Positions 1 through 44,507 of a stretch of 64,000 nucleotides of DNA are shown in pieces. Each line of letters begins with the position of its first letter. Positions within the stretch are counted from its first letter, which is position 1. The translations under genes were made by a program, and so were the position numbers. The notes below the pieces were generated by a model. The model was not told where the DNA came from, ran no database searches, and saw only the letters and a list, made by a program, of their open reading frames with translations. This DNA comes from Escherichia phage KEP2. The stretch is from the sequence record PP047752. One strand, given 5' to 3'.

Positions 1-3109
<3,109 letters not shown>

Positions 3110-3110
<1 letters not shown>

Positions 3111-4579: not shown

Positions 4580-4581
4580 TA

Positions 4582-5436
4582 ATGTTTGAGAAGATTGATA
4601 GTGTTTATTACAAAACACTTGATGAAAGGACTGTAACACAGTTTAAAGATAAATTTATCTATACAAGTATCTTGAAAGCAATCACTGATGAATTACAAAC
4701 TCTAGAGGATGTTTGCTGGCAGATGCACACGGAGAGAAATATCAGAACGTCAGTAGGCCAACAACTTGATAATATTGGCTCACTGATTAAAGTTCCTAGA
4801 CCTTTAGGTGCAGATGATGAAACATATAGGGCTATGCTTTATATTCAAATCTTCCTAAGACGCTCTGACACTACTCCAACATTCTTGCAAAAAGCAATTA
4901 TGACACTATATGGTGCAACTTTCTCTCAGATTTTTGAGCATATTACTCCTAAGACTGGTGGCATTGTTATCCGTATCAACACTAGAAAAAGCGTTCTAGA
5001 TGCTGCATATACACTGTCAAAGATTTCTGCAACAACTACTGGTTCCGCTGTTATCTTAAGAGATGTTACTTTAAATGGAACCGCTTGGACACCTGTAGAG
5101 GTTGCTGATTCATCACTTGCTATTGTTGATGATAAAGAGAACTGGTTTGTAACTGATGCTAACAGAGGTCTTGTCACGAATAACACTGGTGGCTCTCTGG
5201 AGTCCAACTTAGTAGGTAGTCTTGCAGATGCTGGTGTTATTGATGGTTACTTTAGGGTTGACAGAACAGCAAACTCACAGAGTGATGATTATATGACTGT
5301 AGATAGGTCCAATAATAGTGGCTATTTCATCGTTGGTAAAGAAGCTATTGCAGGTGGTGCATACGGAGTCATGGCTGAGGTTGCACAAATTGTCAAAGGC
5401 AGAAAAGATAAATCACAACAAGAAGGAAATTCCTAA
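4582..5436 (+). CDS. putative baseplate/tail-fibre-associated protein
   Basis: Position between J-like gene and tail fibre genes. Confidence 0.3.
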
Positions 5437-5738
5437 TGGCAGTTTTAAATTGGTCTACAAATGAGGTGGACACTGACGGTAATCAGTTAAAAGTCTTACC
5501 ACCAACAGAAGTCCAAGAGACAGGTCTTTTAAAGGGTGAACCTATGGGTAGGCAATGGTTCAACTATATTATCAACTACCTACTGAATAAAGTAAACGGT
5601 ACTGTTGGTGAAGTTCGCTCATATGCAACTCAGCAACCAGATTTAGTAGCCAATGGCTGGAAACTGATTAAGTCTGAGACAGGTACTGCAACAACAAGTA
5701 CAAAGAACCTTTACACATATGAATATGTAGGAGCTTAA
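5436..5738 (+). CDS. hypothetical protein
   Basis: 100-aa ORF coupled to flanking structural genes. Confidence 0.3.
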
Positions 5739-5740
5739 TA

Positions 5741-6916
5741 ATGGCAGTCGGTGAAATTCAAATTAGTGCCTTGCCACAAGCGGCCTTACCAGTTGATTTA
5801 AGTGATATCTTCCATCTTAAGCAAGGTGTTGAGGATAAAAGATGTACGCTTGAACAGTTGTTAGCACCTCACGCATCTTTGAGGAATAATCCTCATGGTG
5901 TAACCAAATCGCAAGTGGGTCTTGATAATGTTATTAACTCTCTTCAATTAGTTGCAGCTAATAACTTGTCAGACATTGTGAATGTTGCTGAGGCAAGAGC
6001 AAATCTACAAATTATGTCGTCAGAGGAAGTGAATAACTTAATTCAACAACATATTGACGACAAAAGTAACCCACACAATACGACGAAAGCACAGGTCGGT
6101 TTAAGTAATGTTCAGAACTGGACAACATCTAATCTGTACAATGAAGATGCTGATAAGTATGCTACCGCGAGAGCAGTGAATAATTTATACAAAGCTATCC
6201 AAGCATCATATCCAGTAGGGACTATTCATCTATCTGTTAATTCTGCTAACCCAGCCACTTACTTGCTTTGTGGAGGTACTTGGGAGTTAGTTTCTAGAGG
6301 TAGAGCACTAGTTGGTTATGATACAAATTCTAGACCTGTTGGTTCAACGTTTGGTTCTCAGACTGTAGTATTAACAAATAACAATTTACCAGCACATACT
6401 CACTCTATCTATCTAACAGGTGGTGGTCATACACACTCTGCAAGTGTATCTATCTCTAGTTTTGATTATGGTTCAAAGAGTACATCAACTTTTGACTATG
6501 GTACGAAGGCAACTAACAGTGCTGGTGCTCACACTCACACGTTTAGCGGCACGACAAGTAATGATGGTAACCATAACCATAGAGTACCACTGAGGGGTAA
6601 TGATAGAAGTGGGTCAAATGCTATTACTGCATCTGCTTATGCTGGGATTGATAATAATATGTATACTGATTTAGCAGGTGCTCACACCCATAGCTTCTCA
6701 GGCACAACTGCATCATCTGGTGCTCATAGTCATACTGTTGCAATTGGTGCTCATAGCCACACTGTTAATATTGGTTCACACAGTCATACGGGTACTGTTA
6801 CTGTCTCTAACTCTGAACATACACACTCAGGAACATCCGGTTCTGTTGGTGGTGGTCAAGCTTTCAGTGTTGAGCAGCCATCTTTTGTCGTATATGTATG
6901 GCAGAGAACAGCTTAA
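5741..6916 (+). CDS. tail fibre protein with N-terminal tail-fibre repeats and C-terminal HxH repeats
   Basis: Two copies of NPH..TK.QVGL.NV motif (phage tail-fibre repeat); C-terminal run of AHTHS/GAHSHT/HxH motifs typical of metal-binding fibre tips. Confidence 0.7.
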   Translation: MAVGEIQISALPQAALPVDLSDIFHLKQGVEDKRCTLEQLLAPHASLRNNPHGVTKSQVGLDNVINSLQLVAANNLSDIVNVAEARANLQIMSSEEVNNLIQQHIDDKSNPHNTTKAQVGLSNVQNWTTSNLYNEDADKYATARAVNNLYKAIQASYPVGTIHLSVNSANPATYLLCGGTWELVSRGRALVGYDTNSRPVGSTFGSQTVVLTNNNLPAHTHSIYLTGGGHTHSASVSISSFDYGSKSTSTFDYGTKATNSAGAHTHTFSGTTSNDGNHNHRVPLRGNDRSGSNAITASAYAGIDNNMYTDLAGAHTHSFSGTTASSGAHSHTVAIGAHSHTVNIGSHSHTGTVTVSNSEHTHSGTSGSVGGGQAFSVEQPSFVVYVWQRTA

Positions 6917-6926
6917 TTTCTTTACA

Positions 6927-6946
6927 GGGGCTTTGTAGCCCCTTTT
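6927..6946 (+). terminator. stem-loop GGGGCTttgtAGCCCC followed by TTTT, preceded by TTTACA
   Basis: Perfect 6-bp GC stem plus T-run between tail fibre genes; same GGGGCTT...AAGCCCC hairpin family as the downstream cassettes. Confidence 0.5.
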
Positions 6947-6962
6947 AAGAGGAAAATTTATA

Positions 6963-9512
6963 ATGGCAGATTACAAGTTGAGTCAATTAAACTCAATCGA
7001 CACAATTCGTTCAGAAGACCTATTGCACATCAGAGTTAAGAAAAGACCTGAAATGTTGGGTGACGAAGACCGTAGAATGACCTATCAAGACTTCTTAGCT
7101 TCCTTCAAACTAGAAAGGTTTGTTCAGATTGCTGGGAGCACTATGACGGGGGATTTAGGTATTGTCAAGTTACTTTACGGTGGAAAGGCTGTATTTGACC
7201 CTACAGACTCTTCTGAGATTACTATTGGGGATATTTTAAAGACTTTTAAAATTAACTCAAATGGTCTTAAACTCACTATCGCAGATGCTTCAAGGTCAGC
7301 AACTGTTTATCATACTTTGAATAAACCAAGTCCTAATGAACTTGGCATGAGAACTAATGAAGAGAATGATGCAAGATATGCAAGGCTTGCTGTTACAAAC
7401 ACATTCTCTGGGACTCAGAACATTCAAGGTGATGCTAACTTACTTCGTCTTAGAAACCAGAATGCAAATAATGCGCAATATATTGAGGGTGTGAACTTAG
7501 ATGGTTCAGCTAGATGGTGGGTTGGTATTGGTAGTAATGGCTCTGATGAAGTAAAACTGTACAATAACAAATACAACTCAGCTTTGGCTATTGCAAGCAA
7601 TATCTCTGTTAATAAGTCTTTAGCAATCACTGGACAAGTTCAACCTTCAGATTTCTCTAACTTAGACGCTAGATACTTTACTCAGACAGTCGCTAATCAG
7701 AGATTTGCACAGTTAGCTGGCAATAACACCTTTACAGGTGCTAACACATTTAGGACTATGAGTGTTATTTCAAATGCTGCTGCCATCACACTGCAATGTG
7801 CATCAGCAAACGAATCCCTGTATCTACTTGCAAAAGATTATGAAGGTGGAAACTTATGGTATCTTGGTAAAGGTAGTTCAGGTGCTGGTGTAACTATCTA
7901 CAACTATACCACTAACACCTCTTTGGTCTTAGATGCTGCTGGAGTATCAGCAAATAAAAATGTCAGAATCACTGGTCAAGTTCAACCTTCAGATTGGGCT
8001 AACATTGACTCTAGATATATTCCGGCAGCAACATTAAGTACAATTGCAAGAACTAATGCAAGGAATACTTTTAATGGTGTACAGACAGTTGTTACGGATA
8101 ATGAAGGTCTGATTGTTAAAAACTCTACTCAGAATAGACCATTATATATTCGTGGTGTGGACACTACTAATGTATCAAGATGGTGGATTGGTGTTGGTGG
8201 TGCTGATACGAATGATGTTACCCTAAATAACAGTTATTCTGGAACCCAATTGGTTCTCGGGAATACAACATCATACATTAACAAAACATTGACTATTGCT
8301 GGACAAGTTCAACCTTCAGATTTTTCTAACTTAGATGCTAGATACTTTACGCAAAGTGCTAGTGATAGCAGATACCTAAGAATCAGAAGCACTAGCTTCA
8401 ATGTGGGAAACACTGAGAAGTGGGCTAAAATTGCCACTGTTGTGATGCCACAATCAGCATCCACTGCTGTTATTGAGGTATTTGGTGGGTCAGGTTTTAA
8501 TATTAATACACCACAACAAGCAGGTAAATGTGAAATTGTTCTGCGAACTTCAAATAACAATCCAAAGGGCTTAAATGTTGTTGCTTGGAGAACATCAGAT
8601 AACACCATTGTCAGGGATATTGGTTATGTGAATACTTCTGGAGACACCTATGATATTTACTATCTTGCTGGTACGTATCAAAACAGCACAACGACAAGGG
8701 TTCAGTCTTCTAGTAATGCAAGTGTACAGTTGTTTGAAGTCCCACAGACATTTGATGATGCTCCACAAGGTATTGTGAAGGGTACAATTGCAAAATACTA
8801 CACAAGTTTGCAAAAACCAACCCCTTCAGATATTGGTGCATACACTAAAGCAGAGACTGACCAGAAGATTGCAGAAGCAATTAGTGACTCTACAGACCTG
8901 AATAAAATCTATCCAGTGGGTATTGTGACATGGTTTAACAGTAATGTTAACCCTAATACAGCACTTCCTGGTCTAACTTGGACGTACCTGAATAATGGTG
9001 TTGGTAGAACTATTAGAATTGCAGCAGCAAATGGTTCAGATGTTGCTACAACTGGTGGTTCAGATTCTGTAACGCTATCTGTTGGTAACTTACCTTCACA
9101 CACGCATAGTTTCTCTGCTACTACTTCATCATTTGATTATGGTACTAAGACGACAAATACGACTGGCAACCATGCTCACGATAGAGGTAACATGGAAATT
9201 TCTGGTGTGGTTGGTTGGTTCAGAAGTGATAACAGTGCATTCTACACTGCGAGCGGTGCGTTTCAGATGGGTAGTTCTCAGGCTTCACATGGCTTCACAG
9301 GCTCTAACTTCACTTACGGTGCTGCTGTTGATTTCCACGCGTCAAGAACTTGGACAGGTGTAACCAACACAACTGGTAACCACGCGCACAGCGTTGGTAT
9401 TGGTGCTCACAGCCACACAGTTAGCGGTAACACAGGTGGCACTGGTTCTGGTTCAGCATTTAGTGTTACTAACCAGTTCTACAAGTTAATGGCTTGGGTG
9501 AGAACTGCTTAA
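6963..9512 (+). CDS. large tail fibre protein with internal repeats
   Basis: 849 aa; motif ITGQVQPSD(F/W)(S/A)N(L/I)D(A/S)RY repeated three times at ~110-aa spacing; C-terminal HTHS/HAHS/HSHT repeats and C-terminal tail similar to the 5741..6916 product. Confidence 0.7.
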   Translation: MADYKLSQLNSIDTIRSEDLLHIRVKKRPEMLGDEDRRMTYQDFLASFKLERFVQIAGSTMTGDLGIVKLLYGGKAVFDPTDSSEITIGDILKTFKINSNGLKLTIADASRSATVYHTLNKPSPNELGMRTNEENDARYARLAVTNTFSGTQNIQGDANLLRLRNQNANNAQYIEGVNLDGSARWWVGIGSNGSDEVKLYNNKYNSALAIASNISVNKSLAITGQVQPSDFSNLDARYFTQTVANQRFAQLAGNNTFTGANTFRTMSVISNAAAITLQCASANESLYLLAKDYEGGNLWYLGKGSSGAGVTIYNYTTNTSLVLDAAGVSANKNVRITGQVQPSDWANIDSRYIPAATLSTIARTNARNTFNGVQTVVTDNEGLIVKNSTQNRPLYIRGVDTTNVSRWWIGVGGADTNDVTLNNSYSGTQLVLGNTTSYINKTLTIAGQVQPSDFSNLDARYFTQSASDSRYLRIRSTSFNVGNTEKWAKIATVVMPQSASTAVIEVFGGSGFNINTPQQAGKCEIVLRTSNNNPKGLNVVAWRTSDNTIVRDIGYVNTSGDTYDIYYLAGTYQNSTTTRVQSSSNASVQLFEVPQTFDDAPQGIVKGTIAKYYTSLQKPTPSDIGAYTKAETDQKIAEAISDSTDLNKIYPVGIVTWFNSNVNPNTALPGLTWTYLNNGVGRTIRIAAANGSDVATTGGSDSVTLSVGNLPSHTHSFSATTSSFDYGTKTTNTTGNHAHDRGNMEISGVVGWFRSDNSAFYTASGAFQMGSSQASHGFTGSNFTYGAAVDFHASRTWTGVTNTTGNHAHSVGIGAHSHTVSGNTGGTGSGSAFSVTNQFYKLMAWVRTA

Positions 9513-10162: not shown

Positions 10163-10195
10163 AAGGCTCCTTTTTACGGGAGCCTTTTTTGTTTT
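10163..10195. terminator. bidirectional intrinsic terminator between convergent genes
   Basis: GGCTCC-tttttac-GGGAGCC with T-run on + strand and A-run upstream; lies between + operon end and - strand thyA end. Confidence 0.55.
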
Positions 10196-11093
10196 ACTTG
10201 CCTACTGACAGAGGTGCTTCAATCTTACCTGCATGTTGGTAGTTATTAATCCCACCAATAAAATCACTTGCTGTAAGATGTTTTAAGTCACTTAAAGTGT
10301 TAAGTGGGATACCAATCTCAAAAGTTGGTGCATGGAACTCTTCATTGTTCATCAGTTCATAAACCTGCTTCATATGGTTCTGATAAATCTGAGTATCCCC
10401 AAAGACACCTATCAAGTACCGTGGAGCGTATCCAGTCATCTTGCAAAGAACTTCCAGAATAAAACCATAAGAGGCAATATTAAACGGAAGTCCTAAAAAG
10501 GTGTCTACAGAACGCTGATACCATTGTAAGTCAACTTCACCCTCATTAGTGATATAAATCTGAAACAGAACATGACAAGGTGCTAAAGCCATTGAGTTTG
10601 CTGCAATATCTGCTGCATTCCAAGCATTAACCAGCATGTAACGGTCTGTGATATCACCCTTCATCTTTGTTACTAATGTCTCTAGTTGGTCTACAACACA
10701 ACCATTATGACCTTCAAAGTTTCTCCACTGAACCCCATAGATTCTCCCACCTGCATCATCTAACCAATCTTGTTCAGAAGAATAATTAGAGCTTAACCAA
10801 CGTTTAAAATCATCTGACCAGATTGTCCAACGTTCTCCGTCATTTTCACCCCAAGTACGGTAACGAAGTTCACCAAGCTTATTCTCTCCATTCAGGAACC
10901 ATAAAGCTTCCCCAATAACTTGCCGTGTAAACACCTGTTTAGATGTTAAAAGTGGGAAACCAGTTCGCATATCAAAACGAAACTGAGGTGGAGCAAATGC
11001 AGAGATAACATCTCCAGTTCGTGTAGTACGCAGTTCACCAACTGATAAAACATGGTTCAGAATATTTTTGTAACTTGTATCTGCTTGTGACAT
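10194..11093 (-). CDS. thyA: thymidylate synthase
   Basis: Active-site region LAPCHVLFQ matches ThyA PCH motif; ~300 aa. Confidence 0.85.
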   Translation of the reverse strand: MSQADTSYKNILNHVLSVGELRTTRTGDVISAFAPPQFRFDMRTGFPLLTSKQVFTRQVIGEALWFLNGENKLGELRYRTWGENDGERWTIWSDDFKRWLSSNYSSEQDWLDDAGGRIYGVQWRNFEGHNGCVVDQLETLVTKMKGDITDRYMLVNAWNAADIAANSMALAPCHVLFQIYITNEGEVDLQWYQRSVDTFLGLPFNIASYGFILEVLCKMTGYAPRYLIGVFGDTQIYQNHMKQVYELMNNEEFHAPTFEIGIPLNTLSDLKHLTASDFIGGINNYQHAGKIEAPLSVGK

Positions 11094-11094
11094 A

Positions 11095-11640
11095 TCAAAA
11101 GTGCCCTTTTACTTGTGGTGTATAGATATCAAAAGTTGCTTTTCCATCTGCTGATGGTCTTGACTGAATCTTAGCGAAAATTTTACGGTCATGCAACTTG
11201 TCAAAGAAGTTCTCAAAAGGTAGATACACAGTTGCCTCTTCAGTCACTTCATGGAAAACTGTATGAAACACTACATCAGCATACGGTAAAGCACTGACAA
11301 GAATACCTGCACCACCAATTACGAAAACATCTTCTTCAATATTACTATCAAGATACTTTAAAAATGCTCCAAAAGAGTCTTGATGAGCTTTAGCAAACAT
11401 AACATCATCTTTACTAAAATCTATACCGTAATAAGGCACGGAGTTTGTTAAGATAAGGTTTTCACGTTCAGGTAAAGGGTTACTTCCCAGAGTCTTGAAA
11501 GTCTCATTACCCATTACTACTAAGTTGTCTTTAGTGAGTCTCTTAAACTCTTGCATATCCTCTTTATGTCGAGGCCACGGCATACCAGTTGGAGTACCAA
11601 ACTCCCCATTTTCACCACTTGCAAAGATTAATTTAATCAT
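11095..11640 (-). CDS. folA: dihydrofolate reductase
   Basis: N-terminus MIKLIFA..G.PW....D...FK..T....VVMG..T matches DHFR signature; adjacent to thyA as in T4 frd-td. Confidence 0.8.
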   Translation of the reverse strand: MIKLIFASGENGEFGTPTGMPWPRHKEDMQEFKRLTKDNLVVMGNETFKTLGSNPLPERENLILTNSVPYYGIDFSKDDVMFAKAHQDSFGAFLKYLDSNIEEDVFVIGGAGILVSALPYADVVFHTVFHEVTEEATVYLPFENFFDKLHDRKIFAKIQSRPSADGKATFDIYTPQVKGHF

Positions 11641-11897
11641 TTTGTAAATCCTTTCTTAATGAACCAGTTGATAACATTCTTCACAGCTTTATTGCTATGG
11701 TAGATTAAGTGTGGTGCAGGTTGGTATGAACCATAGGCCCAGAATGATAGATGCTCACCACAACCAACACATGTAGTACTTTCTTCAGCTATATGACCAT
11801 TAACAATCACATGAACTTCACCTTGTAAGTCTGTACACCCACAATGTGGACAACGTATAGGTGTTCCATCAGACTCATAGCAGTGTTCAATTTTCAT
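11637..11897 (-). CDS. small zinc-finger protein
   Basis: CPHCGC ... CVGCG cysteine pairs. Confidence 0.3.
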   Translation of the reverse strand: MKIEHCYESDGTPIRCPHCGCTDLQGEVHVIVNGHIAEESTTCVGCGEHLSFWAYGSYQPAPHLIYHSNKAVKNVINWFIKKGFTK

Positions 11898-12413
11898 TTA
11901 TTTAACCTCAAAAACTGGTTCAAGAACCAATATAAAGTCTACACAGTCATCTTCTTCATCCAGAATACCATCAAAGTTCTTAGGAACGAAGTCGAAGAGG
12001 CTCATCACAAAGCAGTCAGAAGTAACCCTGATAGTTCCTCCCATATTCTCTACAGTCAACACTGTACGGCTTTCTTTTACCTCTCTCAGAAGATTACTCA
12101 CAAAGTCATCTAAGAAGTACTTCATCAGTGACTTAAAACCTTTAGGGTAATCTGTACCAGAGTATGTTTCAATCTGAGGTACAAGCTTAACATTTATACT
12201 AGTCTTTGTTAAGAATGTGTTAGAGAACATACTATCAGGTAACTTACAAACAATCTTTCCAGTACCTTCATGTTCAATCTCAACAAAACCAGCTTCATCG
12301 CCACATGTGACTATTTTAAAAGATGCTTCATTCTCATGCTGTGAAGCCATAAACTTTTTAAGCATTTCCTTAAGGAAATCTGCATGAGCATCTTGTAAGT
12401 AGATATCAATCAT
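11898..12413 (-). CDS. hypothetical protein
   Basis: 171-aa ORF, packed in - strand operon. Confidence 0.3.
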   Translation of the reverse strand: MIDIYLQDAHADFLKEMLKKFMASQHENEASFKIVTCGDEAGFVEIEHEGTGKIVCKLPDSMFSNTFLTKTSINVKLVPQIETYSGTDYPKGFKSLMKYFLDDFVSNLLREVKESRTVLTVENMGGTIRVTSDCFVMSLFDFVPKNFDGILDEEDDCVDFILVLEPVFEVK

Positions 12414-12426
12414 AGTTAATCACCTA

Positions 12427-12786
12427 TTATGGGAACAGACACTTGATGTCATCGTTTTTAAAAACAAAACTTGTGTAGTTGTGACCGTCAACATCCAGCC
12501 AAACAGCCTGAACATCTACACCATCAAGATTTTGGTAAAGCTCTTTGATAAAGTGGTCTTTCACAATCTGGCTACTGGTTGTTTCCAGCTTAATGTTTGA
12601 GATTGCTGAACCTACAGCCATATAACCCATGACACGTTTCTTCTCAGTATGCTTAATCTTACCATCTTTGTAAGCCATAATGAGATTGGAAAGAATCTTC
12701 ACACCATAATACTTTTCAAGGTGAGTCGGTACACCATAAAAGCCTAATGCGAAGTTTTCAGAGTGGATAATATTTTCACGTTTCAT
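12427..12786 (-). CDS. hypothetical protein
   Basis: 119-aa ORF. Confidence 0.3.
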   Translation of the reverse strand: MKRENIIHSENFALGFYGVPTHLEKYYGVKILSNLIMAYKDGKIKHTEKKRVMGYMAVGSAISNIKLETTSSQIVKDHFIKELYQNLDGVDVQAVWLDVDGHNYTSFVFKNDDIKCLFP

Positions 12787-12787
12787 A

Positions 12788-13117
12788 TTAATCTGCCAAC
12801 CTTAAATTAAAATTAACACCAAATTTTTCACATACTTCCAACATATACTCAAGGGAGACATTACCAGTGAGGTGGATTATGTTGGATACACGAGCCTGAG
12901 AGATACCACAAATTTTAGCAACTTGCTCTTGAGAAAGACCTCTGGATTTAATCTCTCTCTTAAAACGATGTGCAACAAAATCTCTCATTTCGTCTACATC
13001 CATTGGACAAATATAACTCTCCATTTCAGCCTCTCTGTCAGCCTCCCAATCATCTTGTGGAGCATAAGGGTCAAAAACCTCATTCATCTTTCTTCTTCCG
13101 TTTGCGTGAAGTATCAA
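12788..13117 (-). CDS. putative HTH DNA-binding protein
   Basis: RGLSQEQVAKICGISQARVSNIIH resembles helix-turn-helix. Confidence 0.4.
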   Translation of the reverse strand: MILHANGRRKMNEVFDPYAPQDDWEADREAEMESYICPMDVDEMRDFVAHRFKREIKSRGLSQEQVAKICGISQARVSNIIHLTGNVSLEYMLEVCEKFGVNFNLRLAD

Positions 13118-13293
13118 TCAATGAATCTATGTTTGTAGCCCTAACCTTTTCACGTTCATCGTTAAGATAATCATCAAGAGCCTTTTCAATCTGTGAATCA
13201 TCTTGACAGATAACTGTAAAGACTGTAAAGCCGTCTGTATCATCAATTATCTTACCATAACCGCTTCTGGGATGTAACTTTTTAAGAGCCATA

Positions 13294-13677
13294 TCAAATA
13301 CCTGTGCAGCTTCTGTTTTCTAAGAAATACTCAACACCATACATAGCTTTTTGCATCAAGTCTTCTTTAAACTGAATACGATGATTGAGCATAGCCTGTA
13401 CATCAATATCATCAGGGTGCTTCTCTTTAATATTTGCAGATTGTAGGAAATACTCTGCAAGAACACGATACTGATAGTCAGTTACCTTATCAGTCATCTC
13501 TGTTAAAGACTCTTCAGAGATTGGTTTAAGTAGTTCACCATTAGCTAGAGCAACACCTTTTACAATCTGGCAAGTGTCTTCTGGAACACCTGATAAGTCC
13601 ACATTGGGAAGTTCTGTTGCATTAACTGGTAAATTCATTGCCATAACCATTGCAGCAGCTAATAAAATCTTTTTCAT
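13294..13677 (-). CDS. secreted/periplasmic protein with signal peptide
   Basis: MKKILLAAAMVMAMNLPVNA signal-peptide-like N-terminus. Confidence 0.35.
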   Translation of the reverse strand: MKKILLAAAMVMAMNLPVNATELPNVDLSGVPEDTCQIVKGVALANGELLKPISEESLTEMTDKVTDYQYRVLAEYFLQSANIKEKHPDDIDVQAMLNHRIQFKEDLMQKAMYGVEYFLENRSCTGI

Positions 13678-13721
13678 AATGACCTCAAAGTTATATTAAA
13701 TTTTGTATTACATTGAGTATA

Positions 13722-13767
13722 AAAATAAGCTATAACACCTGACTTGTCAACAGATTTTATAGCTTAT
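13722..13767 (-). promoter_or_regulatory. candidate sigma70-like promoter (minus strand) bracketed by 11-bp perfect inverted repeat
   Basis: Reverse complement gives TTGACA-17nt-TATTTT; ATAAGCTATAA (13725-13735) and TTATAGCTTAT (13757-13767) flank the -35. Confidence 0.35.
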
Positions 13768-14109
13768 TTGGCAGATTTTTTATAAGGCTACTGCCATCCT
13801 TCCATACCAGACTACACCATGCCAGACCAGACTTCACATCACCTTACCGTGCAATACATTACTTAAAAACCCTCTTAAAAGACTCTTAAGTGATGCTGGT
13901 GAGTACCCGTTGGTCTATACTGCTCAGTATACTCACCAAATTTTCTATGTCAACAACTTTTATATAAAAGTACTGATAGCTATATGTGTTACAAAACAGA
14001 AGATTGTGAACAAGACACCCATTGCAAAGGATGTGTTCAAAAGCTTACTTGTGATGTAAGACAACACAAAGATAACTAATGCAAATAGTATGATTATGCT
14101 TAGCATAGT

Positions 14110-15210
14110 TTACTCATAATCCCTAATAACGAGGCCAACAGGGAACTGTAAAGAACCCTTACGAGTCATCTTCTGGAACTGAACAGTTAAAGGTTTCCCG
14201 ATAAACTCTTCAGGATGTTCAGCAAGATACTGTTTCTTCTCGTGTGTAGTTTTCCATGAAACATCTACAAAGACGTTAGGAAGAGTCTCTACAACAAACT
14301 TGCCATGACCACGTTTGTCAGTTTTTACACCAGTCACTTTAAACTCTTCCGTGTGCATCTTCTTGTGCTTAATCAAGAAGTATGAACGGTGACAACACTC
14401 ATAGAAGGAGTCTTCAGAGATTGAACGGTACATTGCACCTTCAAACTTAGCTTCAACCCACTTATCATGAGCTTCATCAAACTCCTCCCAAGAGTTCACA
14501 CGGATAGTCTGTACAGGAACCACTCTACAGGTATCACCAAGCTCAATAATGGGTGAGTTATCAATAACTTCACGACGCTCAGGCCAAGTTTTTGAATTGT
14601 CACAGATATCATACCAGTAGAATTTAAGAAGGTGACGTTCTGGGTTGTCAGTATTCTTAATCATAGACACAATATCTTCTAAGTCCCAACCGTGAGCATA
14701 AATCTCACCATCAAAGTCTTCGACTTGTGGATGCAATTTAAGCAACAAAAGCAAATCTGGGATTAGCTCTGCTGGTACGTTGTAAACAGTATTCTCACGA
14801 GAATAAGCCGTGAAACTAACTAAATCAGCATCTCTTGAAATTCTACAACGGACACCATCAAGTTTCGGTTGAGCATCAGCAGGGAACTTCAGATACTTTG
14901 CATGACTAACCTTTGCAGCATCATGAGCAAGCTGCACACCTACCTTTTCAGTATTCTGTGCAGACTCTTTTGTATAAGCATAACCTTTGCGGTCAACTTG
15001 CTTTTTGTACTTAGCAGTAACTTCAAAGAGAGCTTGCTGTTCAGCATTACGCTCATTCTTTTTACCGATGTTTTTAGGTTCTGCTGTATACTCTTCAAAC
15101 ATCATCTTGCCATTTTCTTTACCGTAGGTTGTAATGACTTTGTCACCTACAGCAACGCATGACCAGACGTTAAAAGAACCATCTTTATTCTGTTTGTATA
15201 GTATTGTCAT
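14110..15210 (-). CDS. ATP-dependent DNA ligase
   Basis: Motif I KLDGVR (adenylation lysine); start re-called to MTILYKQ to avoid overlap. Confidence 0.75.
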   Translation of the reverse strand: MTILYKQNKDGSFNVWSCVAVGDKVITTYGKENGKMMFEEYTAEPKNIGKKNERNAEQQALFEVTAKYKKQVDRKGYAYTKESAQNTEKVGVQLAHDAAKVSHAKYLKFPADAQPKLDGVRCRISRDADLVSFTAYSRENTVYNVPAELIPDLLLLLKLHPQVEDFDGEIYAHGWDLEDIVSMIKNTDNPERHLLKFYWYDICDNSKTWPERREVIDNSPIIELGDTCRVVPVQTIRVNSWEEFDEAHDKWVEAKFEGAMYRSISEDSFYECCHRSYFLIKHKKMHTEEFKVTGVKTDKRGHGKFVVETLPNVFVDVSWKTTHEKKQYLAEHPEEFIGKPLTVQFQKMTRKGSLQFPVGLVIRDYE

Positions 15211-15211
15211 T

Positions 15212-15403
15212 TTATTCCTCTGAGTGATACCAAGTATTGCAAGCATTACATGCGTAAAGCTCTAAGTCATTTTTATCTGGTTTATGAAAACAGTTTGCTC
15301 CGCAGTGGCAACGAAATGGCTTTCCACCAACTGTAAGGATGAAGGATTGAACCTTTCCATCAGGAGTTCGTACAGCATTTTTATGTTTATCTTCTTTGTT
15401 CAT
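15212..15403 (-). CDS. small zinc-ribbon protein (paralog A)
   Basis: FRCHCGANCFHKPD...CNACN; paralog of 15728..15931. Confidence 0.4.
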   Translation of the reverse strand: MNKEDKHKNAVRTPDGKVQSFILTVGGKPFRCHCGANCFHKPDKNDLELYACNACNTWYHSEE

Positions 15404-15476
15404 TTTATCTCTTGCCTCACAAGCTATGCAACCTTTTGAGTAGAAGTAGTGCCAAGCACAACCATCAAAGCTCTCT

Positions 15477-15731
15477 TTAGTGATTAATTGAATTTACTAA
15501 TTCCATGTGTTTTTCGTAGAAACATAAACATTTTTTATCTTGCTCATTTATGTAGCTCTCATAAAATTCTGGTGATTCTGGTCTTTCACCAAATGAAATA
15601 ACCTTTAGGTAGTACTTCCCATATGTGGAGCTATCTAACCAAGAGTCAAATAGTAATTTCTTAGTATTAGTCTTTGGAGGGATTACCAAACTTTTCTCAT
15701 ACAATTCCTTCATTTCTTGGGTTATCTTCAT
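15477..15731 (-). CDS. hypothetical protein
   Basis: 84-aa ORF between the two zinc-ribbon paralogs. Confidence 0.3.
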   Translation of the reverse strand: MKITQEMKELYEKSLVIPPKTNTKKLLFDSWLDSSTYGKYYLKVISFGERPESPEFYESYINEQDKKCLCFYEKHMELVNSINH

Positions 15732-15931
15732 TGCATATCCTTAATCTTACCTAAGAACCTTACCCCACAGTTATTACACTCGTATGTGTCTAACTTTGTG
15801 TTATCAGGTTTGTGAAAACAGTTTGACCCACAACGACACCGGAATAGTTTACCATCAACACGAAGAATGAACGTCTCAAGCTCACCCTCTTCTGTAAGAA
15901 CTGCGTTTTTCAATTTATCTCCTACAGTCAT
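15728..15931 (-). CDS. small zinc-ribbon protein (paralog B)
   Basis: FRCRCGSNCFHKPD...CNNCG; clear similarity to 15212..15403 product. Confidence 0.4.
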   Translation of the reverse strand: MTVGDKLKNAVLTEEGELETFILRVDGKLFRCRCGSNCFHKPDNTKLDTYECNNCGVRFLGKIKDMQ

Positions 15932-16134
15932 TTTCTTTTACCACCAATCTCTACGTCGATAACTTGAACATCACCAGCAATATCAAACTTATGAATGATG
16001 CTTTCCACAGTATAAGTCCAACCCTCGATTCGAACCAACTCACCCTCTCGTGGGACGATTGGGTTACGTTGAGCTACGGTTGTAGTGGAGTGAACAACAT
16101 CATAACAGTAGATATAGTTTACTAGGACTTCCAT
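15928..16134 (-). CDS. hypothetical protein (start uncertain)
   Basis: ORF track gives 15928..16233; trimmed to internal Met to avoid overlap with lipoprotein gene. Confidence 0.25.
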   Translation of the reverse strand: MEVLVNYIYCYDVVHSTTTVAQRNPIVPREGELVRIEGWTYTVESIIHKFDIAGDVQVIDVEIGGKRK

Positions 16135-16144
16135 CGTGAAAACC

Positions 16145-16381
16145 TCACTCAATAACCGTAGTATGTGATTGACCATTTTTGCCATAACTATAAGATGTTG
16201 TTGTTTGAGAGTTTGGACACCTGACAACAACAATATCTCTGCTTATTGCATCCCCATTTAACTTATAGACTTTGCAATCTTGCATCTCTGGTGGGAGACT
16301 ATAAGAAGCATTTTTGTCCTCGTAAGAGGGATTACAGCCAGATAGAAAGATAACACCAAGCACAATTACTGCTTTCCACAT
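16145..16381 (-). CDS. small lipoprotein
   Basis: Signal peptide with lipobox-like FLSGC; 78 aa. Confidence 0.4.
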   Translation of the reverse strand: MWKAVIVLGVIFLSGCNPSYEDKNASYSLPPEMQDCKVYKLNGDAISRDIVVVRCPNSQTTTSYSYGKNGQSHTTVIE

Positions 16382-16568
16382 AATACTCCTCCTATTTACT
16401 GTTCACGATGTTCTACTTCTCTGTACGTTCGTCGATAGTATATAATAAGCTGTGCTAATTCGTTGCTTTTAACATCGGAGCGTAACAGTTGCCAATCAAA
16501 GCCTTTACCTACCCTACCATATAAACTAAACAACTTCACTTTGCGTTTCATTTTGGTATCCCCAATAC

Positions 16569-16796
16569 TCAGAGGTCAATACTAATACGTTCACCTTTAA
16601 GGACTCCTGTACGGTCCCTTGCAATCTTACCGTCAACAATAAGGATATGTGCAGACCTTAAAGATTCACTATTAAAACCTTTTAAGAACTTGCTAGGCAT
16701 CACTACAATACACATCTCCTGAATCAACTCTGGAGTATAGCAGTTGTCGTGAAGTTGCTGAATAACGTCTGCAAGTGTCATTTTTGATGTCTCCAA
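16569..16796 (-). CDS. small protein, paralog family member A
   Basis: C-terminal DGKIARDRTGVLKGERISI matches GGKIAKDKTGYLKGERVDI of 16984..17193. Confidence 0.35.
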   Translation of the reverse strand: METSKMTLADVIQQLHDNCYTPELIQEMCIVVMPSKFLKGFNSESLRSAHILIVDGKIARDRTGVLKGERISIDL

Positions 16797-16987
16797 TACT
16801 CAATGTCAATAAGTTCTTGTGCAATGCTTTTCAGATTACCTTTCAAGAAAACCTTCTCAGAACCTGAAAGAGATGAATTGTCAATTAACCTGCTCATTCT
16901 CTCAAACAACTTCTGCTTACGGTTCTTGATAGTCTCATTTGAAGCACCTTTCATCATCGCTGCATGGGTTCTTCCACGGTGACTCAT
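16778..16987 (-). CDS. hypothetical basic protein
   Basis: 69-aa ORF between paralogs. Confidence 0.3.
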   Translation of the reverse strand: MSHRGRTHAAMMKGASNETIKNRKQKLFERMSRLIDNSSLSGSEKVFLKGNLKSIAQELIDIEYWRHQK

Positions 16988-17193
16988 AGCAAATTCTCGA
17001 TGTCTACACGTTCACCTTTTAAGTACCCTGTCTTGTCTTTTGCGATTTTCCCTCCAGCAATAAAGATATCTGCTATACGCAGAGCTTCAGGGTTTACTCT
17101 ATAACCACTGCAAATAACAATAAGCATGTCTTCAATCTCTTTTTGAGAATAACCTGCACATTGCAACTGAACTTCAATCTCTGAAAGCGTCAT
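16984..17193 (-). CDS. small protein, paralog family member B
   Basis: See 16569..16796. Confidence 0.35.
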   Translation of the reverse strand: MTLSEIEVQLQCAGYSQKEIEDMLIVICSGYRVNPEALRIADIFIAGGKIAKDKTGYLKGERVDIENLL

Positions 17194-17254
17194 GTGACCT
17201 CCTATACAAGATACAGTATAAGGTACTCTTCCATGAGCACCTTGTCAATACTAA

Positions 17255-19954
17255 TTAGTGTACTTCAAGCCAGCTTTTACCAACCTTACCAGTACCTGTT
17301 ACAAGTGTTTCTTTCTTAAGACCTAAGTTCTTAGAAGCTTGTCCATAATACCAGTCAGTAACTGCTTTCACTTCTGCCGTCATACTTTCTGGACATTCCC
17401 AGCTTGTTTCATCGTGATATGCGCAGAGCAAACGAGCACCAATAGCTGGTTTACGACCATTTAACTTCATCAAACCTTCGTCAATCATACGACGACAAGC
17501 AAGGTTAATTGCCTCATTTTGAATCTGAGCCTCTGAACCCATCAAAAGATAGTTCAACAGTTTGTGTGGAGATTTACACCACAACCAAGCTCCAGCAACC
17601 TTTACAAATCCCCCTTTAGAGATTGCAGCGGTCTTACCAAAAACCTCTTCAAGTGCCTTTTTAGTCGCTTTGTAGTCAGCTTCCAAGTCATCTAGCAACT
17701 TCTTAATTTTAGGCAAACGAATAAAGTAAGTCTGTTTAGTCAGTGCACCTTCCTGAGTAGTTGCAGCTTTAATTGTCTTAGCAAACTTCTCATCACCTGC
17801 ACCGAACAGCAGTGCATAGATACCATTCTTAGCTTTTTTACGACCCTTACTAATCTCATGGAGAAGATTCTCATCCTGAGTGGCTCGACAAGTCAAGATA
17901 TCCTGCTCATCATTCAAGCTAAAGTAAATACTGTTCAGTGTGTGTGCATCAGTCCCTGAATAGACAACGTACAGGTCATTCTCAGAGTCATAGCGGAGGT
18001 ACTTATCAATCTCTGGGTTGAGGTACTCATCAAAGTGTTTGCAGTAATAGCGTCCATCTTCTTGACGAATAAACTCAATCTCTTCTTTACCTTGCGTTAC
18101 CGCTTTGGTGAAGTCTTTGTCACCCATAAAGTTACAAAGGAGAACTAGCTGGGCTGAGTTCATGTCTACAGAGACAACATTAGTACCTTCTTCACAAATC
18201 CACACTGCCCTCATTGGTTCCCCATAGACAGCAGCACCAGACGGTACGTTTACAATACCATATTGTGTCATACGTCCAGTTGAAGTACCAAATACCATTG
18301 CACCAGCACTAAGGCGACCATCTGGACGAATCTGGTTTAGCCAACCTTTTTCATCATCCTTTGAGTTCTCAATAGTTCTGCGTCTGTGCATCAAAGTATA
18401 GTACTTAGCAATCTTCTGTCCAAGCTCACCTTCAATCGTATCATAAGATGATTCAGTAAGTTTTGGTGAAGTACGGATTAAGCAAGGCTCAAGCAAATCT
18501 GTGTACTTCTTCACAGACCAGTTATGCTCGATGTACTGTACACCTTCATGTTCAACATAACTCAAACCACACCGCTCAACCATTTCCTGCCACTTAGGAT
18601 GCTTTGTAATCATCTTTTTATTGTCTTTGAAACGACAAACTTTGACAGGGCGACCGTCTGAATCTTTCTTGTAGTTCCAGTCATCTGGAATCCAACCAAC
18701 TGATTTCAAGTAGTCTTTAACAACTGCTACCTGAGTCATACGAGAAACTTCAAACTCAATTGGTGTATATGGTGCATCAATCAATCCTGTGTAGCGACTT
18801 GACTCAAGCTCAAAGTGGTTAACAACATGACTGTTATAGTACTTCACAGTTTTAACTGTTTTTACTGGCTTCCAGTCTTTGCATTTCTTACCAATCTTTG
18901 CATTCAACTCATTGCAAATTGCACGAGCATCCTTCATTGCTACAAAACCTTCCTTGTACTCTTCACCAGTTACAGAGTTGGTTGGTGTATAGCAATTTCT
19001 CTTTTCAATGTTAAAAATCTTTGTAGTTGGCTTACCAAATGGCTTGATTTCATATGTCTGCATCTCACCGTTACGTACCTGCTGACGATACTTTGTCTTA
19101 GGGTACTTGGTAATTCTCTTCAGTCCATCTGCGTGACCAAATGCTTCAACATACTCATTCCAAGCTTTTGCAAACTCTTCTCCAGTGACTTTACCTTTGG
19201 TCTTGATAGTTGGTGGAAGGTGTGGTTCAACTTCTGAAGCAAGCTCATTAGTCAGCTTGTCAAGTTCCTTTACATGGAACTCCATAAGCTCTTTATCAGC
19301 TTTCCAACCATTGATAGCCTGTTGACTCATCCAGAAAGATGTTTCTTTAGCTCGCATGTAGGTTTCATAAGTATCTATGCCACACTTCTTCAGCTTGAGA
19401 TATTCATTATCCAGTGCGCGTTTAGTTTTGGCGTTAATACGGATATCTTCCACAACACGAGTGAAGATTTCTGCATTCCACACACCCCAATGTTCAATCT
19501 CTGGTTTACGTACACCAACACGAGCACCCCATGCTGCCAAGCCATGAGCACCTTTATAACCTTTTGGAGTTGGTCTATCCATCCACTGAACACGAGACTG
19601 GATAAGAGAATCCTGAAAGAAATTACTCCACGGCTTACACTTTGGATTATCAAAGTTCCACAAATCAGGTGCAATGTGATTGAAAACCCACCAGTCATAC
19701 CCCAGACCATTATGGATGCAGAGTCGTTTTGCCTTTAACGCAAACTCAATGCCTTCACGTAAGCCACCCTTAATGTACTTGGTATACTTGTGACCGAGGA
19801 TAGGTTCATCTGTAAAGACCCATACAGGCGGCTCTTCATCGTCAGATTTATAGTCTGCGAAAGCCATTACGTGCACTTTAGTGAACTCAAGGAGTAAACC
19901 ATCAGTTTCTGTATCACCAACTAAATGTAAGTTTTTAAAATCTACGTTTTCCAT
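17255..19954 (-). CDS. DNA polymerase, family A (T7-like) with 3'-5' exonuclease domain
   Basis: N-terminal LVGDTETDGL exo motif; ~900 aa; start re-called to MENVDF with GAGGGAG SD. Confidence 0.85.
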   Translation of the reverse strand: MENVDFKNLHLVGDTETDGLLLEFTKVHVMAFADYKSDDEEPPVWVFTDEPILGHKYTKYIKGGLREGIEFALKAKRLCIHNGLGYDWWVFNHIAPDLWNFDNPKCKPWSNFFQDSLIQSRVQWMDRPTPKGYKGAHGLAAWGARVGVRKPEIEHWGVWNAEIFTRVVEDIRINAKTKRALDNEYLKLKKCGIDTYETYMRAKETSFWMSQQAINGWKADKELMEFHVKELDKLTNELASEVEPHLPPTIKTKGKVTGEEFAKAWNEYVEAFGHADGLKRITKYPKTKYRQQVRNGEMQTYEIKPFGKPTTKIFNIEKRNCYTPTNSVTGEEYKEGFVAMKDARAICNELNAKIGKKCKDWKPVKTVKTVKYYNSHVVNHFELESSRYTGLIDAPYTPIEFEVSRMTQVAVVKDYLKSVGWIPDDWNYKKDSDGRPVKVCRFKDNKKMITKHPKWQEMVERCGLSYVEHEGVQYIEHNWSVKKYTDLLEPCLIRTSPKLTESSYDTIEGELGQKIAKYYTLMHRRRTIENSKDDEKGWLNQIRPDGRLSAGAMVFGTSTGRMTQYGIVNVPSGAAVYGEPMRAVWICEEGTNVVSVDMNSAQLVLLCNFMGDKDFTKAVTQGKEEIEFIRQEDGRYYCKHFDEYLNPEIDKYLRYDSENDLYVVYSGTDAHTLNSIYFSLNDEQDILTCRATQDENLLHEISKGRKKAKNGIYALLFGAGDEKFAKTIKAATTQEGALTKQTYFIRLPKIKKLLDDLEADYKATKKALEEVFGKTAAISKGGFVKVAGAWLWCKSPHKLLNYLLMGSEAQIQNEAINLACRRMIDEGLMKLNGRKPAIGARLLCAYHDETSWECPESMTAEVKAVTDWYYGQASKNLGLKKETLVTGTGKVGKSWLEVH

Positions 19955-20011
19955 TTTTACTCCCTCTAAAATCATTAACCTCATACATTACTGCAAAAAA
20001 TTATAAAAAGC

Positions 20012-20050
20012 AAGTTGACAATGTGCTTGACAAGGTGTTAATCTTTGCGA
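20012..20050 (+). promoter_or_regulatory. divergent promoter region with tandem TTGACA elements
   Basis: TTGACAatgtgcTTGACAaggtg in 227-bp AT-rich intergenic region between - strand polymerase and + strand operon; -10 not confidently placed. Confidence 0.3.
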
Positions 20051-20211
20051 AGTGGGTTTTTACTTAAAAGGTTACTTAACAGTTTAACTATACAGATACT
20101 TTAAAACTCTTAAAAGATTATTTAATAGCTTTTAAAAAGCTTTAAAGTATAACGTATAGAATACGTTAAGATAAAAGATTAAAACTTAATAGTTACTTAA
20201 AAGAGGCTTAC

Positions 20212-20634
20212 ATGCAGAAAATGTTTGTTCACCCAGACATAGCTGACTTTGTTAGAGCTTTGCAGAAGTTGGAAGAACTTGACATTGCTGCTCAACGGGA
20301 ATATGCTCACCATCACAGGAGAATGGTTGATATACAACATGAAATAGAGTTGTCCGAAGACTATGAAGACGACTTAAAATGCTCTGTGTTTGAGCATATG
20401 AAAGATGTTGCTACAGCGAGACGTAAAGCTAAAGACACAGTTGCTTTACTAGATTCTCTTAAAAAGAGGTTGCAAAGTGGTACAGACCTGTGTAATCTAG
20501 CGTCACTGATTAACGATGTTGAAACTTCTTGGGATAGGCATTACTATCCACGTTCTGAAAAGACACTTGACTTTTCTTCATCTGAAAACTTAAAATGTTC
20601 TAGAAAGAAACTTAACCAACTGAGAGAGAAATAA
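20212..20634 (+). CDS. hypothetical protein
   Basis: 140-aa ORF, first gene of + strand block. Confidence 0.35.
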   Translation: MQKMFVHPDIADFVRALQKLEELDIAAQREYAHHHRRMVDIQHEIELSEDYEDDLKCSVFEHMKDVATARRKAKDTVALLDSLKKRLQSGTDLCNLASLINDVETSWDRHYYPRSEKTLDFSSSENLKCSRKKLNQLREK

Positions 20635-44428: not shown

Positions 44429-44433
44429 AGTGT

Positions 44434-44463
44434 TTGACAAGGGGCTTCAAAGCCCCTTAGAAT
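44434..44463 (+). promoter_or_regulatory. promoter with palindromic spacer: TTGACA-aGGGGCTTcaaAGCCCCt-TAGAAT
   Basis: -35 TTGACA 44434-44439, 18-nt spacer forming hairpin, TAGAAT 44458-44463; same architecture as small-gene cassettes. Confidence 0.45.
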
Positions 44464-44507
44464 AGCCTTACAAAATGATTTATTAACTAACAAGAGAGAG
44501 TAATAAG

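What the first reader, a model, noticed from the sequence alone, without database searches (positions are those of the whole stretch)
16145..16381. Small lipoprotein encoded within an early/replication block
A 78-aa product with a signal peptide and lipobox-like FLSGC. Small phage lipoproteins made early often act in superinfection exclusion by masking the receptor (T5 Llp is the classic example). Its placement among replication genes rather than lysis genes favours that role over an o-spanin.
Basis: inference. Interest (0 to 1): 0.4.

Follow-up and report, generated by a model that had tools for sequence, protein, structure and literature searches.

The report
Small early phage lipoprotein, DUF4884 family
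This is a real, conserved gene for a small outer-membrane-anchored lipoprotein in a Felix O1-like phage; it belongs to a large, uncharacterised family of phage lipoproteins, it is not a lysis spanin, and it does not look like the receptor-masking lipoprotein of phage T5.

Summary
The ORF exists at 16145-16381 on the minus strand. It encodes 78 aa with an AGGAGG ribosome-binding site, a signal peptide and the lipobox L-S-G-C.

The lipobox pattern alone is no rarer than chance. The evidence that it is real:
- The lipid-attachment Cys and two further Cys are invariant across 149 diverse homologues.
- dN/dS among Ounavirinae orthologues is 0.02-0.33.

The window is a Felixounavirus; the orthologue in Felix O1 is ORF91. 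The protein belongs to phrog_902 and carries the label Pfam DUF4884. That family has at least 666 clusters at 50% identity, in Felix-like, rV5-like, T5-like, T4-like, T1-like and jumbo phages of Vibrio, Acinetobacter, Aeromonas and enterobacteria. No member has been characterised.

It is not the o-spanin; the real Rz/Rz1 pair lies at 47468-47978.

An Llp-type receptor mask is not supported:
- There is no similarity once the signal peptide is removed.
- The gene is not linked to the tail-fibre genes.
- Felixounaviruses use LPS as receptor.
- Phage Rtp carries a DUF4884 gene (rtp3) in addition to its proven exclusion lipoprotein Rtp45.

Most likely it is a stand-alone envelope effector with a conserved periplasmic target. 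Its function is untested.

The parts
16145..16381 (-). Complete coding sequence of the 78-aa prolipoprotein (stop codon 16145-16147)
   Evidence: ORF list and sequence. phrog_902 match, E=6e-17. Orthologues in about 196 Ounavirinae records. dN/dS 0.02-0.33.
16388..16393 (-). Shine-Dalgarno sequence AGGAGG, 6 nt before the ATG
   Evidence: Read directly from the sequence.
16337..16381 (-). Signal peptide, residues 1-15 (MWKAVIVLGVIFLSG), predicted to be removed by signal peptidase II
   Evidence: PROSITE lipoprotein rule met. h-region GRAVY 3.3. Actual cleavage is inferred.
16334..16345 (-). Lipobox L13-S14-G15-C16; C16 would be the acylated first residue of the mature protein
   Evidence: 142 of 149 family representatives have a lipobox. 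C16 invariant in alignments A2 and A5.
16148..16336 (-). Mature lipoprotein, 63 aa, about 7.0 kDa, pI 5.7. Asn at +2 points to default sorting to the outer membrane. Conserved core: LPPEMQDC-KVYKL...VVVRCPNSQTTT..GK
   Evidence: AF2 models show a small beta-sheet protein with pLDDT 64-69. Outer-membrane sorting is inferred from the E. coli +2 rule.
16274..16276 (-). Codon of Cys36, invariant; presumed partner of Cys55 in a periplasmic disulfide at the base of a beta-hairpin
   Evidence: Invariant in A2, A3, A5 and A6. Strands predicted at 37-42 and 50-54. The disulfide is inferred.
16217..16219 (-). Codon of Cys55, invariant, within the near-invariant motif VVRCPNS

Best explanation
The gene encodes an accessory lipoprotein made together with the replication genes. 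After export, lipidation and cleavage at Cys16, the 63-residue mature protein is anchored in the inner leaflet of the outer membrane and faces the periplasm. It is probably a small beta-sheet held by a Cys36-Cys55 disulfide.

It belongs to the DUF4884 / phrog_902 family, a single-gene module spread among many unrelated virulent phages of Gram-negative bacteria. It most likely works alone, binding a conserved periplasm-facing envelope component of the host rather than the phage's own receptor. This would change the envelope of the infected cell to the phage's advantage. The most probable phenotype is broad exclusion of incoming phage or protection of progeny ('lytic conversion').

Shown: the gene is real, the lipoprotein features are present, it belongs to the family, it has no conserved partner gene, and it is not a spanin. 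Inferred: its localisation, the disulfide, early timing, the target and the phenotype. The confidence of 0.4 applies to the whole statement including the inferred mechanism; that it is a real lipoprotein gene of this family I put at about 0.9.
For: - Lipobox and Cys conservation.
- Purifying selection.
- phrog_902 match, E=6e-17.
- Family size: 666 clusters at 50% identity.
- Spread over Felix-like, rV5-like, T5-like, T4-like, jumbo and T1-like phages.
- In 7 lineages the lipoprotein gene is the only gene shared within about 3 kb on either side, so it is a stand-alone module.
- In other phages it always lies among small early-type ORFs.
- Polar residues around the two Cys are near-invariant (D35, R54, P56, N57, S58, T60, K68), as expected for a conserved partner.
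- Its general build (about 6-7 kDa, periplasmic, outer-membrane lipoprotein, one disulfide, beta-hairpin) matches the two exclusion lipoproteins with solved structures, Llp and Rtp45 (PMC9586334, PMC12685063).
- It is accessory: present in Felix O1 (ORF91) and absent in VpaE1.
Against: - No member of the family has a tested function.
- There is no structural analogue in the PDB. The models have only moderate confidence, pLDDT 64-69.
- The conserved motif could reflect folding constraints rather than a shared target.
- Expression timing was not measured, and the promoter scan was uninformative.
- The Pfam label DUF4884 could not be reproduced with the local Pfam scan.
Confidence: 0.4

Rival explanations
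1. One reading: an Llp/Cor/Rtp45-type exclusion lipoprotein that binds the periplasmic face of this phage's own outer-membrane receptor and allosterically blocks adsorption of the same phage.
For: Size, predicted location and single disulfide match those of Llp and Rtp45 (PMC9586334, PMC12685063). It is co-transcribed with replication genes and is not a spanin. There is a weak PHROG hit to Cor (E=0.21), but it covers only residues 1-23.
Against: - No similarity of the mature protein to Llp (probability 1.3%) or Rtp45 (0.1%).
- Not adjacent to the tail-fibre genes at 5741-9512; it lies on the opposite strand, 6.6 kb away.
- Felixounaviruses depend on the LPS core, not on a protein receptor (PMC8594841; 10.64898/2026.04.02.716166).
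- The core is conserved across phages with unrelated hosts and receptors.
- Rtp has both rtp3 (DUF4884) and the proven exclusion lipoprotein Rtp45.
Confidence: 0.12
2. An envelope-directed host-takeover or counter-defence factor with no exclusion phenotype. It might, for example, neutralise a periplasmic or outer-membrane host function (an envelope stress sensor, a peptidoglycan hydrolase, vesicle release, or an envelope-linked defence), or adjust lysis timing.
For: The distribution fits a conserved host target: a stand-alone accessory gene in early-type gene blocks of many virulent phages. One metagenomic phage contig with a DUF4884 gene also encodes its own signal peptidase II and an SLT transglycosylase, which suggests investment in envelope functions.
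Against: No hit to known defence or anti-defence models, and no similarity to known lysozyme inhibitors or other curated families. The idea rests on inference only.
Confidence: 0.25
3. An o-spanin or other lysis-cassette lipoprotein.
For: It is a small outer-membrane lipoprotein. Spanin genes can lie outside lysis cassettes, as in T4 (from my own knowledge).
Against: - The window has a bona fide overlapping pair: Rz at 47468-47815 (phrog_1152, E=2e-41) and the lipoprotein ORF at 47709-47978.
- The target has no neighbouring gene for a membrane-anchored i-spanin.
- Mature-protein hhalign of that Rz1 ORF against the target family gives probability 0.2%.
Confidence: 0.02
4. A chance ORF with a fortuitous lipobox, not a gene.
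For: The lipobox rule alone gives about 1.8 hits per shuffled window.
Against: Strong ribosome-binding site, conservation over hundreds of phages with invariant Cys residues, and dN/dS well below 1.
Confidence: 0.01

Closest known systems
Felix O1 ORF91 (Felix01p170) and its Ounavirinae orthologues; broader family phrog_902 / Pfam DUF4884 (e.g. Rtp rtp3, Henu8 gp6, Aeromonas phage Aeh1 'Lipoprotein')
   Same: These are direct orthologues, 73-99% identical, at the same position between DNA polymerase and ligase in Felixounavirus and Mooglevirus. The wider family shares the lipobox, two invariant Cys and the motif DC-x-Y...C-x-N/G-S/T-x-T...GK.
   Different: Nothing functional is known for any member. 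The T1-like branch (rtp3) is only a remote relative of this protein: profile-profile probability 73%, E=3e-5 on mature sequences.
T5 Llp (lytic conversion lipoprotein; FhuA-Llp structure, PMC9586334)
   Same: Both are small (mature 61 vs 63 aa) lipoproteins of virulent phages with an intramolecular disulfide. Llp is an outer-membrane lipoprotein facing the periplasm and is made before lysis; the same is predicted or inferred for this protein.
   Different: No sequence or profile similarity beyond the signal peptide. The Cys spacing differs: C26...C73 in the Llp precursor, C36...C55 here. Llp is encoded next to pb5; the target is not linked to a receptor-binding protein gene. Llp targets the TonB-dependent transporter FhuA, whereas Felixounaviruses use LPS.
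Rtp45 of phage Rtp (LptDE-binding exclusion lipoprotein, PMC12685063) and the Cor proteins of T1/phi80
   Same: Rtp45 is a periplasmic lipoprotein of about 6 kDa with one disulfide and a beta-hairpin. It shows that conserved outer-membrane machines such as LptDE can be targets of phage lipoproteins.
   Different: Unrelated in sequence (hhalign probability 0.1%). rtp45 lies next to the tail and receptor-binding protein genes. Rtp carries a separate DUF4884 gene, rtp3.
Rz1-type o-spanins
   Same: Small outer-membrane lipoproteins encoded by phages.
   Different: No partner i-spanin gene nearby and no profile similarity. The window's real Rz/Rz1 pair is elsewhere.
T4 Spackle (Sp), a periplasmic inhibitor of the incoming phage's tail lysozyme (recalled from my own knowledge, not tested)
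   Same: It is an early, small envelope protein of a virulent phage that gives exclusion through a conserved, non-receptor target. This is the kind of mechanism favoured here.
   Different: Spackle is not a lipoprotein. No family search here returned a match to it.

Membership tests
Bacterial lipoprotein (signal peptidase II substrate; PROSITE PS51257 rule) | Positively charged n-region, hydrophobic h-region, lipobox [LVI][ASTVI][GAS]C, Cys at position 15-35 | tested here: met
   K3; residues 4-13 have GRAVY 3.3; L-S-G-C with Cys16. The pattern alone is not rarer than in shuffled sequence.
Bacterial lipoprotein (signal peptidase II substrate; PROSITE PS51257 rule) | Lipobox and lipid-attachment Cys conserved in homologues | tested here: met
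   142 of 149 representatives have a lipobox. Cys16 is invariant in A2 and A5.
Bacterial lipoprotein (signal peptidase II substrate; PROSITE PS51257 rule) | Actual diacylglyceryl modification and globomycin-sensitive processing | not testable with these tools
   Needs palmitate labelling or a globomycin experiment.
phrog_902 / Pfam DUF4884 (PF16225) | Significant match to the PHROG family profile | tested here: met
   phrog_902: E=6e-17, residues 1-76.
phrog_902 / Pfam DUF4884 (PF16225) | Significant match to the Pfam PF16225 profile | tested here: inconclusive
   All homologues carry the precomputed label PF16225/DUF4884, and GenBank records use this name for the T1-like branch. But the local hmmscan of Pfam-A gives no PF16225 hit for the target or for any of 149 members.
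phrog_902 / Pfam DUF4884 (PF16225) | Family core: two invariant Cys after the lipid Cys, with motif LPxELxDCK[IV]Y ... VVRCPNSxTTT ... GK | tested here: met
   The target has LPPEMQDCKVY ... VVVRCPNSQTTT ... GK.
T5 Llp / Cor / Rtp45-type receptor-masking exclusion lipoproteins | Sequence or profile similarity of the mature protein | tested here: not met
   hhalign on mature sequences: Llp probability 1.3%, Rtp45 0.1%. The Cor PHROG hit (E=0.21) covers the signal peptide only. BLASTP against Llp aligns residues 1-42: signal peptide plus a short gapped N-terminal stretch, weak at 17 bits.
T5 Llp / Cor / Rtp45-type receptor-masking exclusion lipoproteins | Gene adjacent to the receptor-binding protein gene | tested here: not met
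   Tail-fibre genes are at 5741-6916 and 6963-9512 (+). The target is at 16145-16381 (-), between ligase and polymerase. Compare T5 llp next to oad and rtp45 next to rtp43/44.
T5 Llp / Cor / Rtp45-type receptor-masking exclusion lipoproteins | The phage's terminal receptor is an outer-membrane protein with a periplasmic face the lipoprotein can bind | not testable with these tools
   According to the literature, Felixounaviruses depend on the LPS core or O-polysaccharide (PMC8594841; 10.64898/2026.04.02.716166). This argues against the feature but was not tested for this phage.
T5 Llp / Cor / Rtp45-type receptor-masking exclusion lipoproteins | Expression blocks adsorption of the same phage | not testable with these tools
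   Needs an experiment.
o-spanin (Rz1) | Encoded embedded in, overlapping or next to an i-spanin gene, with a profile match to spanin families | tested here: not met
   The neighbouring ORFs are small PHROGs of unknown function. The true pair is at 47468-47815 / 47709-47978.

The most novel reading that the evidence does not exclude
DUF4884 lipoproteins could be a pan-phage envelope effector: one small, horizontally mobile gene used by many unrelated virulent phages (Felix-like, rV5-like, T5-like, T4-like, jumbo, T1-like). It would jam a universally conserved periplasm-facing outer-membrane machine, for example LptDE, Bam, Lol or Tol-Pal. The result would be broad cross-phage exclusion or a shutdown of outer-membrane biogenesis, distinct from the receptor-specific Llp/Cor/Rtp45 class.
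Probability: 0.25. Interest if true: 0.65.

Novelty: new member of a known kind. Interest (0 to 1): 0.3.

Why it matters
The gene itself is ordinary. It is an orthologue of Felix O1 ORF91, deposited many times as 'hypothetical protein' and left unannotated in some records.

The family is more interesting than the single gene. It is a very widespread, strongly conserved, stand-alone lipoprotein of virulent phages with no known function. In phage Rtp it occurs alongside, not instead of, the known receptor-masking exclusion lipoprotein. If its target is a conserved outer-membrane machine, it would define a second, receptor-independent class of phage envelope effectors and a possible probe or inhibitor of that machine. 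It could also matter for designing phage cocktails, through cross-exclusion between Felix O1-like phages and others.

Tried and rejected
- **Curated family searches:** Pfam, NCBIfam and PADLOC scans of the target and of diverse homologues gave nothing beyond signal-peptide-level hits.
- **PDB by sequence:** neither the single sequence nor the family profile found anything.
- **Structure:** two AlphaFold2 models were made, one of the full length with 57 sequences (pLDDT 64) and one of the mature protein with 141 sequences (pLDDT 69). Foldseek against the PDB gave no hit with E<1, and neither Llp nor Rtp45 was recovered. BFVD returned only family members.
- **Promoters and terminators:** the scan of 13500-20500 was no better than shuffles.
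- **Conserved neighbour or partner gene:** none found in 7 lineages.
- **Bacterial genomes:** the scan with the motif VVRCPNSxT[TS] found one locus, in Hylemonella gracilis, beside a repressor-like gene. This motif subfamily is therefore almost absent from representative bacterial genomes. Pfam DUF4884 also names a Bacteroides chromosomal protein, BT_3183 (PMC8931616), which I could not compare.
- **Literature:** searches for PF16225, phrog_902, DUF4884, and Felixounavirus with lipoprotein or exclusion found no functional study.
- **Readings rejected:** the o-spanin and chance-ORF readings (see rival explanations).

Full report
**Observation**

The ORF lies on the minus strand at 16145-16381. 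It encodes 78 aa: MWKAVIVLGVIFLSGCNPSYEDKNASYSLPPEMQDCKVYKLNGDAISRDIVVVRCPNSQTTTSYSYGKNGQSHTTVIE. AGGAGG sits 6 nt upstream of the ATG.

The N-terminus meets the PROSITE lipoprotein rule: K3, a hydrophobic stretch, L-S-G-C, and Cys16. A scan of every six-frame ORF with this rule gave three hits:
- the target;
- 47709-47978 (+);
- an obvious artefact at the window edge.

Shuffled windows give 0-4 such hits, about 1.8 on average, so the motif alone is not evidence. The evidence is comparative.

**Where the window comes from**

A 6-kb stretch around the gene is about 94% identical to Escherichia phage vB_EcoM_DE17 and to hundreds of Felixounavirus genomes.

The window map:

| Coordinates | Strand | Content |
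|---|---|---|
| 1-9512 | + | baseplate and tail-fibre genes |
| 10194-19984 | - | thymidylate synthase, DHFR, small ORFs, ligase (14110-15246), small ORFs including the target, DNA polymerase (17255-19984) |
| from 20212 | + | replication and nucleotide-metabolism genes |
| 42062-45617 | + | rIIA and rIIB |
| 47468-47978 | + | spanin pair |

The target is separated from its neighbours by 14 nt upstream and 10 nt downstream. It therefore belongs to one polycistronic unit with polymerase and ligase. Early or middle timing is an inference from this arrangement. The promoter scan added nothing.

**It is a real gene**

- tblastn finds it in 585 phage records. About 196 are Ounavirinae orthologues at 60-99% identity.
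- The orthologue in Felix O1 is ORF91 (Felix01p170).
- The position between polymerase and ligase is kept in Felixounavirus and Mooglevirus.
- VpaE1 lacks the gene, so it is accessory.
- Pairwise dN/dS among eight orthologues is 0.02-0.33.

**Family**

The protein matches phrog_902 (unknown function) at E=6e-17. A profile search of 1.84 billion cluster representatives found 666 clusters at E<=1e-3. Almost all are proteins of 75-130 aa.
- 142 of 149 representatives have a lipobox.
- In alignments of 64 and 149 diverse members the only invariant residues are the lipid Cys and two further Cys, C36 and C55 of the target (M1 is also invariant in the 64-sequence alignment).
- The shared core is LPxELxDCK[IV]Y...VVRCPNSxTTT...GK.

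Precomputed labels call all of these Pfam PF16225/DUF4884. I could not reproduce that with the local Pfam scan, and this discrepancy is unexplained. NCBIfam and PADLOC give nothing.

Members occur in:
- Felix-like and rV5-like myoviruses;
- T5-like Vibrio phages;
- Acinetobacter phages;
- jumbo phages;
- T4-like Aeromonas phages.

In every case looked at, the gene sits among small early-type ORFs. Across seven lineages the lipoprotein gene is the only gene shared within about 3 kb on either side.

A scan of 185,579 representative bacterial genomes with the motif VVRCPNSxT[TS] found a single locus. At least this subfamily is therefore essentially a phage gene.

**Structure**

AlphaFold2 predicts a small beta-sheet protein, with a hairpin at residues 37-42 and 50-54 flanked by the two Cys. 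Confidence is only moderate, pLDDT 64 and 69. Foldseek finds no analogue in the PDB, and BFVD returns only family members annotated 'Lipoprotein'. The Cys36-Cys55 disulfide and outer-membrane sorting (Asn at +2) are inferences.

**Not a spanin**

The window has a canonical overlapping pair: Rz at 47468-47815 (phrog_1152, E=2e-41), and a lipoprotein ORF at 47709-47978 with a weak Rz-like hit. The target has no i-spanin neighbour.

**Not an Llp-type receptor mask**

- T5 Llp aligns with the target over residues 1-42 only: the signal peptide plus a short, gapped N-terminal stretch, weak at 17 bits. With signal peptides removed, hhalign against the family gives probability 1.3% for Llp and 0.1% for Rtp45.
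- Llp and Rtp45 are encoded beside their receptor-binding protein genes (PMC9586334, PMC12685063). The target is 6.6 kb from the tail-fibre genes, on the other strand.
- Felixounaviruses depend on the LPS core or O-polysaccharide rather than on an outer-membrane protein (PMC8594841; 10.64898/2026.04.02.716166).
- The core of the family is conserved across phages of very different hosts and receptors.
- Phage Rtp has the structurally proven LptDE-binding exclusion lipoprotein Rtp45, and also rtp3. rtp3 is a lipoprotein whose close relatives are annotated DUF4884. As a subfamily profile, these relatives align with the target family over both Cys and the GK motif: probability 73%, E=3e-5, mature sequences only. 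In that phage, therefore, the DUF4884 protein is not the receptor mask.

**Most likely mechanism**

The protein is a stand-alone, periplasm-facing, outer-membrane-anchored effector that binds a conserved envelope component. Broad exclusion or protection of progeny is the most probable phenotype (confidence 0.4).

Rivals:
- a non-exclusion envelope takeover or counter-defence role (0.25);
- a true Llp-like mask of the phage's own receptor (0.12);
- a spanin (0.02);
- a chance ORF (0.01).

All functional statements are inference. No member of the family has been studied.

**Verdict**

The gene is a new member of a known but uncharacterised family. Interest in the gene itself is modest. The family as a whole is a reasonable experimental target.

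Noticed in passing
window 47468-47815 (+) and 47709-47978 (+): This is the phage's real spanin pair. The Rz-like i-spanin (phrog_1152, E=2e-41) overlaps, in another frame, an 89-aa lipoprotein ORF (MKRLSQSFIMFVLLIIMSGC...). That ORF matches phrog_4180 and, weakly, an Rz-like spanin PHROG.
   Followed up: partly
L003 1234-1665, 2808-3359 and 8001-8321 (ENA metagenome contig k119_1535721, 130 kb): A phage-like contig that carries a DUF4884 gene also encodes its own lipoprotein signal peptidase II (Peptidase_A8), an SLT transglycosylase and a CDP-alcohol phosphatidyltransferase.
   Followed up: no
L010 10001-10255 (JGI 3300047323 contig Ga0495683_0000001, 2.23 Mb): A DUF4884 member lies on a 2.2-Mb contig. 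Its neighbours are almost all ORFs without Pfam hits, plus ankyrin-repeat proteins, a class-I tRNA synthetase and a dUTPase. This looks like a giant virus or an unusual symbiont rather than an ordinary bacterium.
   Followed up: no
window 15212-15403 (-) and 15728-15931 (-); 16569-16796 (-) and 16984-17193 (-): There are two pairs of paralogous small ORFs around the target. One pair is four-Cys, zinc-ribbon-like proteins (FRCHCGANCFHKPD... / FRCRCGSNCFHKPD...), which some GenBank records label 'DNA ligase'. The other pair both match phrog_4230.
   Followed up: partly
window 15400-17300 and loci L012, L013, L016: The interval between polymerase and ligase is a mosaic hot spot in Felixounaviruses. 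Its small-ORF content varies, HNH homing endonucleases are inserted in it, and in VpaE1 the polymerase gene is split and the lipoprotein gene is missing.
   Followed up: partly
L016 1201-1434 (phage tootiki), L017 1201-1428 (phage KhF2), L009 (GE_vB_B3): The lipoprotein gene is present but unannotated in some deposited genomes. In the UNVERIFIED record GE_vB_B3 it is broken by frameshifts, probably sequencing errors.
   Followed up: partly
family-wide (versus 4, 10, 28, 99): The precomputed Pfam label PF16225/DUF4884 is attached to every homologue, yet the local Pfam-A hmmscan gives no PF16225 hit for any of 149 members. The cause is unknown.
   Followed up: partly
family members P0038, P0042, P0084; P0034, P0085, P0100; P0140, P0160: Some family members have C-terminal additions: a shared tail of the form L-K-x-E-A-L-x-K-L-[TS]-x-E-E-[RK]-x-[AV]-L-G-L, a small extra two-Cys module, or repeated VVDGVxY / INGETY segments. 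Their meaning is unknown.
   Followed up: no
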